A stretch of DNA of 64,000 nucleotides, taken from NCBI RefSeq assembly GCF_000026545.1, contig NC_011601.1. One strand, given 5' to 3'. A program made the translations under genes and the position numbers. Below, piece after piece: positions 12,258-12,779 of this stretch (the stretch's first letter is position 1; every line of letters starts with the position of its first letter). The DNA is from Escherichia coli O127:H6 str. E2348/69 (GTDB lineage: Bacteria; Pseudomonadota; Gammaproteobacteria; Enterobacterales; Enterobacteriaceae). The notes under the pieces are model-generated. The model was not told the DNA's origin, made no database searches, and worked only from the letters and a program-made list of their open reading frames with translations.

Positions 12258-12779
12258 ATGAAACATTCATTTGAAGTAAAACTTGCCGCTGTAAATCATT
12301 ACCTGGCTGGTCATGCAGGCATCATTTCTACGGCAAAACTCTTTCAACTTTCTCACACCAGCCTCTCACACTGGATTAATCTTTTTCTTCTTCACGGTCC
12401 TCGGGCACTGGATTGCAGACACAAGCGTAGCTATTCTCCTGAAGATAAACTTTGCGTGGTTCTTTATGCTCTCGGGCATTCTGAGTCTCTACCCCGGGTA
12501 GCTGCCCGGTTTAACATTCCCAGCCACAACACGGTTAAAAACTGGATAAAAGGCTACCGCAAATCTGGTAATGAGGCCTTTATCAGGTGCAGGAAGGAGA
12601 AAAGCATGACCCGTTCTGATGATACCCATGAAAACGAGGCAAACATGACGCCGGAAGAGATGAAGAATGAGCTGCGTTATCTTCGCGCAGAAAATGCATA
12701 TCTGAAAGCCATGCAGGAGCATCTTCTGGAAAAAAAGCGCCAGGAGCTGGAGAAAAAACGAAAGTCATCCAGAGCCTGA
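12258..12779 (+). CDS. IS3-family transposase OrfA (HTH, leucine-zipper region)
   Basis: ORF 12249..12779 (ATG at 12258: MKHSFEVKLAAVNHYL...); ends just after the A AAA AAG slippery heptamer; charged coiled-coil-like C-terminus typical of IS3 OrfA. Confidence 0.8.
   Translation: MKHSFEVKLAAVNHYLAGHAGIISTAKLFQLSHTSLSHWINLFLLHGPRALDCRHKRSYSPEDKLCVVLYALGHSESLPRVAARFNIPSHNTVKNWIKGYRKSGNEAFIRCRKEKSMTRSDDTHENEANMTPEEMKNELRYLRAENAYLKAMQEHLLEKKRQELEKKRKSSRA

What the first reader, a model, noticed from the sequence alone, without database searches (positions are those of the whole stretch)
12731..12737. Programmed -1 ribosomal frameshift site for the IS3-family OrfAB transposase
The heptamer A AAA AAG (12731-12737) lies in the OrfA frame five codons before the OrfA stop. 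The -1 frame is open from this point and reads directly into the OrfB integrase-core sequence (…KVIQSLRYGHCQSDLLKAAGLARSTLYYQ…), the classic arrangement for IS150-group elements.
Basis: partly seen in the sequence, partly recalled or inferred. Interest (0 to 1): 0.3.

Follow-up and report, generated by a model that had tools for sequence, protein, structure and literature searches.

The report
Known IS1397 transposase frameshift site
This is the already catalogued slippery sequence at which ribosomes shift back one base to make the full transposase of the E. coli insertion sequence IS1397, sitting here in a copy that a second mobile element (ISEc21) has broken, so it is ordinary.

Summary
AAAAAAG lies at 12731-12737, phased A AAA AAG in orfA (12258-12779). 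The -1 frame is open from 12671 and runs into the integrase-core ORF. One detail is wrong: 13 codons, not five, separate the heptamer from the orfA stop.

The element is IS1397 (IS3 family, IS150 group), at 12207-13321 plus 14696-15012, inserted in a REP between yijF and gldA. RefSeq annotates intact copies as "programmed frameshift". A fusion protein built with the slip at 12737 is exactly the NCBI IS1397 transposase.

Sharma et al. 2014 (PMC4066793, Tables S4/S8) already list this site. They record an upstream SD-like sequence and a 38-nt hairpin with a 3-nt spacer, and call frameshifting "safely inferred", not demonstrated. I recovered the same parts independently: GGAG at 12716-12719 and a hairpin at 12741-12778 (-14.6 kcal/mol, z -3.05).

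Two nuances:
- The heptamer lies 9 codons downstream of the YLKK/ILKK position used by 28 of 29 frameshifting relatives examined.
- This copy is split by ISEc21 (13322-14695) at the second catalytic D, so the shifted product would be a truncated 375-aa protein.

Novelty: already known. Interest is low.

The parts
12207..13321 (+). IS1397, left portion (left inverted repeat, orfA, frameshift cassette, 5' two-thirds of orfB)
   Evidence: 100% identical to RefSeq copies annotated 'IS3-like element IS1397 family transposase'. The match to the intact copy L001 ends exactly at 13321.
12207..12231 (+). Left terminal inverted repeat of IS1397 (starts 5'-TG)
   Evidence: 25-nt arms, 84% complementary, 1432 bp end to end in the intact copy L001 3028-4459, mapped to the window.
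12203..12206 (.). Target-site duplication GTGA, left copy, in the loop of a REP/palindromic unit
   Evidence: Read directly. The flanks GCCGGATACGGCGTGA and GTGAACGCCTTATCCGGC rebuild one REP. The REP arms appear as inverted repeat I5.
12258..12779 (+). orfA (173 aa, HTH domains plus a C-terminal coiled-coil region); stop TGA at 12777-12779
   Evidence: Translation. Pfam HTH_28 and HTH_Tnp_1 matches. The exact protein is in the collection as 'Insertion element IS1397 uncharacterized 20.1 kDa protein'.
12715..12719 (+). SD-like AGGAG; its GGAG ends 11 nt before the heptamer (12 nt before its second base)
   Evidence: Sequence. GGAG-N11-AAAAAAG is unique in the window against 0.05 expected. Invariant in 6 E. 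coli copies. Falls within the 6-17 nt rule and is scored as present in 100% of the IS1397 cluster by Sharma et al. 2014.
12731..12737 (+). Slippery heptamer A AAA AAG, the -1 frameshift site
   Evidence: Phase verified. Only in-phase heptamer in the overlap. A slip here reproduces the NCBI IS1397 transposase exactly. Invariant in 6 copies. Listed as cluster A_AAA_AAG_5.
12741..12778 (+). Downstream hairpin: CAGG-(AG)-CUGGA ... UCCAG-(AG)-CCUG, 38 nt, 3-nt spacer, outer stem 4 bp
   Evidence: -14.6 kcal/mol, z -3.05, 2 of 200 shuffles fold as well. Same size, spacer and first stem as Table S8 of Sharma et al. 2014. The variant A12771G keeps its pair as U-G. One variant, A12742T in strain DFL.5, breaks an outer pair.
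12753..12758 (+). Second A-run (GAG AAA AAA CGA) in the hairpin loop; phased G AAA AAA, so not a canonical heptamer
   Evidence: Codon phasing. A fusion built with the slip here is not in the protein collection.
12671..13321 (+). orfB frame (-1 relative to orfA) from its opening to the ISEc21 junction; HTH_21 domain and the first two catalytic D residues
   Evidence: Translation. Pfam HTH_21, rve, rve_2 and rve_3 on the reconstructed fusion. NCBIfam transpos_IS3 388 bits against a cut-off of 160, one stretch across the junction. No standard start codon before GTG 12884.
13322..14695 (+). ISEc21 (IS110 family, 1374 bp, no target duplication), inserted between codons ...LLHSD and QGWHY... of IS1397 orfB; its tnp is at 13603-14679
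   Evidence: 99.7% identical to copies annotated 'IS110-like element ISEc21 family transposase'. Precise junctions. The same HSD|QG site is used in other IS3-family genes. The target is published.
13382..13384 (+). Stop codon that would end the frameshifted product of this broken copy (375 aa, last 21 residues read from ISEc21)
14696..15012 (+). IS1397, right portion: 3' end of orfB (stop 14978-14980, carries the DNAxxE catalytic E) and right inverted repeat 14988-15012 (ends CA-3')
   Evidence: Colinear with L001 4143-4459. ORF 14753-14980. Inverted repeat, sequence.
15013..15016 (.). Target-site duplication GTGA, right copy
   Evidence: Read directly.

Best explanation
12731-12737 is the programmed -1 ribosomal frameshift site of IS1397.

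Proposed mechanism (inferred, not shown here):
- Ribosomes translating orfA reach A AAA AAG with tRNA-Lys on AAA (P site) and AAG (A site).
- A fraction of them slip back one base to AAA AAA.
- Two flanking elements are inferred to promote the slip: pairing of the 16S rRNA 3' end with GGAG 11 nt upstream, and a 38-nt hairpin starting 3 nt downstream.
- Those ribosomes continue in the orfB frame and make the 449-aa OrfAB transposase (HTH, linker, DDE core). Non-shifted ribosomes end at 12777-12779 and make the 173-aa OrfA.

In this copy the cassette is intact, but ISEc21 splits orfB after the second catalytic D. The shifted product would therefore be a 375-aa truncated protein without the catalytic E, and the copy cannot transpose on its own.

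Shown here: the sequence, its phase, the open frames, the domain content, identity with annotated IS1397, and the presence of the flanking elements. Inferred: that shifting occurs at this site, how efficient it is, and the roles of the two stimulators.
For: - Phase and frames.
- Only in-phase X XXY YYZ heptamer in the 106-nt overlap.
- RefSeq annotates intact copies, including the one at this locus, as a joined CDS 'programmed frameshift'.
- The fusion with the slip at 12737 equals the NCBI 'IS1397 family transposase'. The second-run fusion is absent.
- The fusion matches NCBIfam transpos_IS3 in one stretch across the junction (388 bits, cut-off 160) and carries Pfam HTH, HTH_21 and rve domains.
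- orfB has no ATG/GTG/TTG before 12884.
- Hairpin -14.6 kcal/mol, z -3.05.
- GGAG-N11-heptamer unique in the window against 0.05 expected.
- Both flanking elements meet the empirical rules of Sharma et al. 2014. The same paper lists IS1397 as cluster A_AAA_AAG_5 with SD 100%, hairpin 100%, 38 nt, spacer 3 nt, and -1 PRF 'safely inferred'.
- 28 of 29 frameshifting relatives (36-58% identity) carry A AAA AAG or A AAA AAA in the overlap. Those folded have a downstream hairpin with z between -3.4 and -3.8.
- Heptamer and GGAG are invariant in 6 E. coli copies.
Against: - No experiment on IS1397 frameshifting was found. The primary IS1397 papers are not held, and Sharma et al. call it inferred, not demonstrated.
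- IS1397 copies are too alike (97.5% or more in this region; aln_div 0.02), and no relative lies between about 60% and 95% identity. The hairpin therefore cannot be tested by covariation.
- One natural variant breaks an outer stem pair without compensation.
- The 3-nt spacer is shorter than the 6 nt of IS150, IS911 and IS2.
- Folded in longer contexts the region is not unusually stable (z -1.0 and -1.5).
- The run is A7, so transcriptional slippage cannot be excluded from sequence alone.
Confidence: 0.85

Rival explanations
1. Transcriptional slippage. RNA polymerase stutters on the run of seven A (12730-12736) and adds one A to a fraction of transcripts. Standard translation of those transcripts then gives the same OrfAB fusion, with no ribosomal slip or only a minor one.
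For: The run is A7, one longer than the A6 of IS150-type relatives. For IS1447, annotated as an IS150-subgroup member although its authors argue for a separate subgroup, seven A were reported sufficient for transcriptional slippage (PMC6211511).
Against: - The motif is phased exactly as A AAA AAG and flanked by an SD-like sequence and a hairpin at distances typical of ribosomal signals. Polymerase slippage would need neither the phasing nor these distances.
- Relatives use A6G at the equivalent cassette.
- From general knowledge, E. coli RNA polymerase slips efficiently only on runs of about nine or more (Wagner 1990 and Larsen 2000, cited).
Confidence: 0.07
2. The shift happens at the second A-run (G AAA AAA, 12752-12758), alone or in addition, giving ...RQELEKK-TKVIQ... 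instead of ...LLEKK-APGAGEKTKVIQ....
For: - The run lies inside the overlap, and a -1 slip there also joins orfA to orfB.
- One natural variant turns it into G AAA AAG (strain DFL.5).
Against: - It is not an X XXY YYZ heptamer in phase (G, not A, at the first position).
- It ends in AAA, which is less shift-prone than AAG in E. coli (general knowledge; Sharma 2014).
- It sits in the loop of the predicted hairpin, with no structure at a suitable distance downstream.
- A fusion built here matches no protein on record.
Confidence: 0.04
3. There is no recoding. OrfA and OrfB are made separately, with OrfB starting from its own codon, and the heptamer is a chance lysine pair.
For: AAAAAAG is common in the window (27 copies). 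GTG 12884 opens a 166-aa ORF in the orfB frame.
Against: - There is no ATG/GTG/TTG in the orfB frame between 12671 and 12884. A start at 12884 would drop the residues upstream of the HTH_21 domain and separate the DNA-binding OrfA part from the catalytic core.
- The IS3 transposase model spans the junction in one stretch.
- The same overlap-plus-heptamer design recurs in 28 of 29 frameshifting relatives.
Confidence: 0.03

Closest known systems
IS1397 frameshift cluster A_AAA_AAG_5 of Sharma et al. 2014 (NAR 42:7210, PMC4066793, Tables S4 and S8)
   Same: It is the same element and the same site: A_AAA_AAG in orfA, upstream SD-like sequence, 38-nt hairpin, 3-nt spacer, 4-bp first stem, longer product after the shift (against my).
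   Different: Nothing in the cassette. This copy is additionally broken by ISEc21, so its shifted product is truncated.
IS150 -1 frameshift signal (Vogele et al. 1991, cited; cluster A_AAA_AAG_37)
   Same: Same IS3-family subgroup, same heptamer A AAA AAG, and a downstream hairpin whose 3' arm lies on the codons next to the conserved LR of OrfB.
   Different: - IS150 places the heptamer at the conserved YLKK of OrfA. IS1397 has CTG AAA GCC there and carries its heptamer 9 codons (27 nt) further on.
- IS150: hairpin 48 nt, 10-bp stem, 6-nt spacer, no SD-like element. IS1397: 38 nt, 4-bp first stem, 3-nt spacer, SD-like element present.
IS911 and E. coli dnaX -1 frameshift signals
   Same: Three-part signal: SD-like sequence upstream, A AAA AAG, and a downstream structure. 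IS911 is scored Y/Y. The roughly 10-nt SD spacing in dnaX is from my own knowledge of Larsen et al. 1994, cited.
   Different: - IS911 belongs to the IS3 subgroup, has a 6-nt spacer and a 57-nt structure, and has experimental proof.
- dnaX is a cellular gene in which the shift gives a shorter product.

Membership tests
IS3 family insertion sequence (IS150 group, IS1397) | Two overlapping ORFs, with orfB in the -1 phase relative to orfA | tested here: met
   orfA 12258-12779. The -1 frame is open from 12671, giving a 106-nt overlap.
IS3 family insertion sequence (IS150 group, IS1397) | OrfA with HTH domains; OrfB with a DDE (rve) integrase core; whole fusion matches the IS3 transposase model | tested here: met
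   Pfam HTH_28, HTH_Tnp_1, HTH_21, rve, rve_2 and rve_3. NCBIfam NF033516 at 388 bits against a cut-off of 160, model positions 1-369 of 369. Tested on the intact copy L001. In the window the core is split by ISEc21.
IS3 family insertion sequence (IS150 group, IS1397) | Imperfect terminal inverted repeats ending 5'-TG...CA-3' and a short (3-4 bp) target duplication | tested here: met
   25-nt inverted repeats TGAACTG...CAGTTCA, 1432 bp apart end to end. GTGA on both sides.
IS3 family insertion sequence (IS150 group, IS1397) | Near-identity to the element named IS1397 | tested here: met
   100% DNA identity over 1142 nt to RefSeq copies named IS1397 family transposase. The exact OrfA and OrfAB proteins carry that name. 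The ISfinder reference itself was not available for comparison.
IS3 family insertion sequence (IS150 group, IS1397) | Insertion into the loop of a REP/palindromic unit (a published property of IS1397) | tested here: met
   The flanks rebuild GCCGGATACGGCGTGAACGCCTTATCCGGC. The property is stated in PMC1525189.
Bacterial programmed -1 ribosomal frameshift signal (IS3 type) | X XXY YYZ heptamer phased in the upstream frame, inside the overlap, with the -1 frame open | tested here: met
   A AAA AAG at 12731-12737.
Bacterial programmed -1 ribosomal frameshift signal (IS3 type) | Downstream hairpin of 17-140 nt starting 4-10 nt after the motif, opening with G-C or C-G plus at least 3 further pairs, with unfolding energy of at least 7.6 kcal/mol (rules of Sharma et al. 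2014) | tested here: met
   The hairpin starts at the 4th base after the motif (12741) with C-G, A-U, G-C, G-C. It is 38 nt, -14.6 kcal/mol, z -3.05. It sits at the short limit of the spacing rule.
Bacterial programmed -1 ribosomal frameshift signal (IS3 type) | [quoted passage not shown] | tested here: met
   GGAG at 12716-12719, 12 nt before base 12732.
Bacterial programmed -1 ribosomal frameshift signal (IS3 type) | Conservation or covariation of the signal beyond what the protein requires | tested here: inconclusive
   Copies are 97.5% or more identical in this region. No relatives lie between about 60% and 95% identity. There is one pair-preserving change and one pair-breaking change.
Bacterial programmed -1 ribosomal frameshift signal (IS3 type) | A transframe protein observed, and dependent on the heptamer | not testable with these tools
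   The primary IS1397 papers are not held. Sharma et al. class it as 'safely inferred'.
IS150-type placement of the frameshift site | Heptamer encodes the KK of the conserved OrfA motif Y/I-L-K-K, with a 6-nt spacer to the GCCUUAG...CUAAGGC hairpin | tested here: not met
   IS1397 reads Y-L-K-A (TAT CTG AAA GCC) at that position. Its heptamer is 9 codons downstream with a 3-nt spacer.

The most novel reading that the evidence does not exclude
The IS1397 lineage lost the ancestral IS150-group slippery site at YLKK. It rebuilt a complete three-part cassette (GGAG, 11 nt, A AAA AAG, hairpin) 27 nt downstream, re-using roughly the same 3' hairpin arm next to the conserved LR codons. That would be a small natural example of turnover and relocation of a recoding signal within one transposase gene. 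A further possibility is that the resulting A7 run also allows some transcriptional slippage.
Probability: 0.5. Interest if true: 0.2.

Novelty: already known. Interest (0 to 1): 0.07.

Why it matters
It matters little beyond correct annotation. The OrfA: OrfAB ratio set by this site is presumed to control how often IS1397 transposes, and IS1397 is present in about a third of complete E. coli genomes (1721 of 5426). The site is already annotated by RefSeq and catalogued in the recoding literature.

For this window the practical points are two. The two ORFs should be read as one frameshifted transposase gene. This copy is a dead one, split by ISEc21 at its catalytic motif.

The 9-codon displacement of the site relative to the rest of the IS150 group is a minor evolutionary curiosity.

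Tried and rejected
- **Primary IS1397 papers** (PMC94167, PMC169884): not held, so I found no experimental statement on the frameshift.
- **Intermediate relatives for a covariation test of the hairpin.** All three searches below failed, so no covariation test was possible.
  - Plasmid tblastn found only 95-99% or below 60% identity.
  - The viral-contig scan gave 34-58% or 99-100%.
  - The 5.8-billion-protein search was swamped by hits at 98% or more.
  - The 1.84-billion-representative search gave 44% as the next full-length hit.
- **P0170 and P0200** looked like closer relatives (77% and 93%). They are IS1397 itself read through A-run length differences, with further frame errors downstream, so most likely assembly errors. 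I rejected them as evidence of naturally fused copies.
- **Folding longer contexts** (123 and 201 nt) gave non-significant z-scores. Only the local 45-nt fold stands out.
- **Rfam** has no matching frameshift-element family here.
- **Second A-run as the site:** considered and rejected as the main site.
- **ISEc21 targeting the HSD|QG codons** looked novel until I found it published.
- **Not run:** the genome contigs and metagenome scans. The literature already settled the identity, and their cost was not justified.

Full report
**1. The observation**

Window 12731-12737 reads AAAAAAG. orfA starts at ATG 12258, and in its frame the local codons are CTG GAA AAA AAG CGC.

The -1 frame has its last upstream stop at 12668-12670, so it is open from 12671.

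One detail is wrong. The orfA stop is TGA at 12777-12779, and 13 sense codons separate AAG from it, not five. A second, shorter A-run (GAG AAA AAA CGA, 12750-12761) lies six codons before the stop and may be what was counted.

The heptamer alone is not rare: 27 copies on both strands of the window against 16 expected. An in-phase copy inside the 106-nt overlap is unlikely by chance, about 0.007 at that density (my arithmetic). It is the only in-phase X XXY YYZ motif in the overlap.

**2. What the element is**

The surrounding DNA is IS1397, an IS3-family element of the IS150 group.
- Window 12180-13321 is 100% identical to RefSeq copies annotated "IS3-like element IS1397 family transposase". 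The element occurs in 1721 of 5426 complete E. coli genomes.
- An intact copy sits at this same locus, between yijF and gldA, in E. coli O127:H6 E2348/69 (locus L001). There the gene is one joined CDS of 1349 nt flagged "programmed frameshift". Other strains carry the same annotation.
- The intact element is 1432 bp, with 25-nt imperfect inverted repeats TGAACTG...CAGTTCA.
- In window coordinates it spans 12207-15012. It is flanked by a GTGA duplication, and the flanks rebuild one REP palindromic unit. That is the published target of IS1397.

The copy in the window is interrupted. The 1374 bases at 13322-14695 are absent from L001 and were inserted without duplication. They are ISEc21, an IS110-family element. 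The insertion falls between the codons ...PLLHSD and QGWHY..., right after the second catalytic aspartate.

**3. Where the shift is placed**

I built the two possible fusion proteins from the intact copy. With the slip at 12737 the junction reads ...LLEKK-APGAGEK.... This protein is found letter for letter in the public collection as "IS3-like element IS1397 family transposase". The fusion at the second A-run is not on record.

This shows where NCBI's pipeline puts the join. It does not show that ribosomes shift there.

The fusion carries HTH domains, an HTH_21 domain and the rve integrase core. It matches NCBIfam's IS3 transposase model in one uninterrupted stretch across the junction, at 388 bits against a cut-off of 160.

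orfB has no ATG, GTG or TTG between 12671 and 12884. A separately initiated full-length OrfB is therefore unlikely.

**4. Flanking signals**

Upstream, AGGAG lies at 12715-12719. Its GGAG ends 11 nt before the heptamer. The composite GGAG-N11-AAAAAAG occurs once in the window against 0.05 expected.

Downstream, the 45 nt after the heptamer fold into CAGG-(AG)-CUGGA...UCCAG-(AG)-CCUG at 12741-12778. The energy is -14.6 kcal/mol, z = -3.05, and 2 of 200 shuffles fold as well. In longer contexts the signal is diluted, with z of -1.0 and -1.5.

Both elements satisfy the empirical rules that Sharma et al. 2014 derived from 271 IS3-family members:
- a hairpin starting 4-10 nt after the motif with a G-C or C-G pair plus three more pairs, and an unfolding energy of at least 7.6 kcal/mol.

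The hairpin here is at the short limit of the spacing rule.

**5. It is already in the literature**

Supplementary Table S4 of that paper lists cluster A_AAA_AAG_5, "Fam IS3/grpIS150/IS1397 [true]; transposase A". The entry covers 59 genes, has SD/structure scored Y/Y, and records a longer frameshift product. A footnote says -1 PRF "can be safely inferred" for this cluster rather than demonstrated.

Table S8 gives SD in 100% and hairpin in 100% of members, hairpin size 38 nt, spacer 3 nt and first stem 4 bp. This is the same structure I found independently.

Their alignment divergence for the cluster is 0.02, too low to test synonymous-site constraint. My own sampling agrees. Six E. coli copies differ at a handful of positions in this region. 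The heptamer and GGAG are invariant. One stem change keeps a pair as U-G, and one (strain DFL.5) breaks an outer pair.

No relative between about 60% and 95% identity turned up in plasmids, viral contigs or 1.84 billion protein representatives. Covariation therefore cannot be tested.

**6. Comparison with relatives**

I examined 29 frameshifting relatives at 36-58% identity: IS150, ISKpn8, ISBth167, ISEnfa3, a Pantoea element and many prophage-borne copies.
- In 28 of them A AAA AAG (or A AAA AAA) encodes the KK of a conserved OrfA motif, Y/I-L-K-K. ISLla3 has U UUA AAA there instead.
- Those I folded have a hairpin starting about 6 nt downstream, for example GCCUUAGCUC/GAGCUAAGGC in IS150, with z between -3.4 and -3.8.
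- Several have GGAG 11 nt upstream.

IS1397 keeps the motif as ...ENAYLK-A... (TAT CTG AAA GCC) but has no slippery sequence there. Its heptamer is 9 codons (27 nt) further on, at ...LLEKK. It has its own GGAG at the same 11-nt distance and a shorter hairpin whose 3' arm lies just upstream of the conserved LR codons of OrfB.

So the design is the family's, but the placement is not the "classic IS150" one. Four more distant relatives (ISKpn38 and others) encode the transposase as a single ORF with no frameshift.

**7. Mechanism and rivals**

Best explanation, confidence about 0.85: tandem -1 slippage of the two tRNA-Lys on A AAA AAG. It would be helped by anti-SD pairing upstream and by the hairpin downstream. 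The result is OrfA (173 aa) without the shift and OrfAB (449 aa) with it.

In this copy the shifted product would stop at 13382-13384 inside ISEc21. That gives a 375-aa protein lacking the catalytic E, so the copy is not autonomous.

Rivals:
- **Transcriptional slippage on the A7 run.** It is kept at low probability because seven A were reported sufficient in IS1447. The phasing and the spacing of the two flanking elements argue for a ribosomal signal.
- **Shifting at the second A-run.** It is out of canonical phase, lies in the hairpin loop, and has no protein on record.
- **No recoding at all.** This is contradicted by the lack of an orfB start codon and by the family-wide design.

**8. Verdict**

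The feature is already annotated in RefSeq and catalogued in the recoding literature, although direct experimental proof for IS1397 itself was not found in what I could read.

No Rfam family covers it. The ISEc21 insertion at the HSD|QG codons, which I noticed in passing and confirmed in four other IS3-family genes, is also published (Siddiquee et al. 2024).

Interest is low.

Noticed in passing
window 13322-14695 (tnp 13603-14679); also L061-L064: ISEc21 (IS110 family) is inserted without duplication exactly between the codons HSD and QG of IS1397 orfB. Four other E. coli loci carry it at the same codon boundary in different IS3-family transposase genes (...VMFHSD|QGSHYTS...). [quoted passage not shown] IS1397 is not named there as a target.
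   Followed up: yes
window 12207-15012 compared with L001 3028-4459: E2348/69 variety 2 has an intact IS1397 at this same yijF-gldA site, with flanks 100% identical to the window. The ISEc21 insertion (or a conversion from another IS1397::ISEc21 copy) is therefore recent. Only 13 complete E. coli genomes carry this exact IS1397::ISEc21 junction.
   Followed up: partly
window 12699-12710 compared with 12731-12737: The IS150-group ancestral slippery position (YLKK) reads TAT CTG AAA GCC in IS1397. The working heptamer, with its own GGAG 11 nt upstream, lies 27 nt downstream. None of the 29 frameshifting relatives examined shares this placement.
   Followed up: partly
proteins P0170 and P0200: Public protein predictions read ...LLEKSARSWRKTKVIQ.... 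This corresponds to one A fewer in each of the two A-runs, which fuses orfA to orfB in a single frame. Further frame errors downstream suggest homopolymer sequencing errors rather than naturally fused copies.
   Followed up: no
L060 (strain DFL.5), aligned to window 12742 and 12758: This variant copy changes the second A-run to G AAA AAG and breaks one outer pair of the hairpin (A to T at the position of 12742). It is still annotated as a programmed frameshift.
   Followed up: no
L058 (E. coli Nissle 1917), aligned to window 12821-12825: The Nissle 1917 copy has a 5-nt deletion in orfB just downstream of the cassette and is annotated as a frameshifted pseudogene.
   Followed up: no
L012, L013, L014, L015: Some more distant IS3-family relatives (ISKpn38, and Yokenella, Sulfitobacter and E. 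coli plasmid elements) encode the transposase as one continuous ORF of 510-515 codons with no frameshift.
   Followed up: no
window 15035-15077: A weak, sub-threshold Rfam match to ES036 (CssrF) sRNA (22.9 bits against a gathering score of 37.6, E 0.24). It lies in the REP-rich spacer between IS1397 and gldA and is probably REP-derived noise.
   Followed up: no
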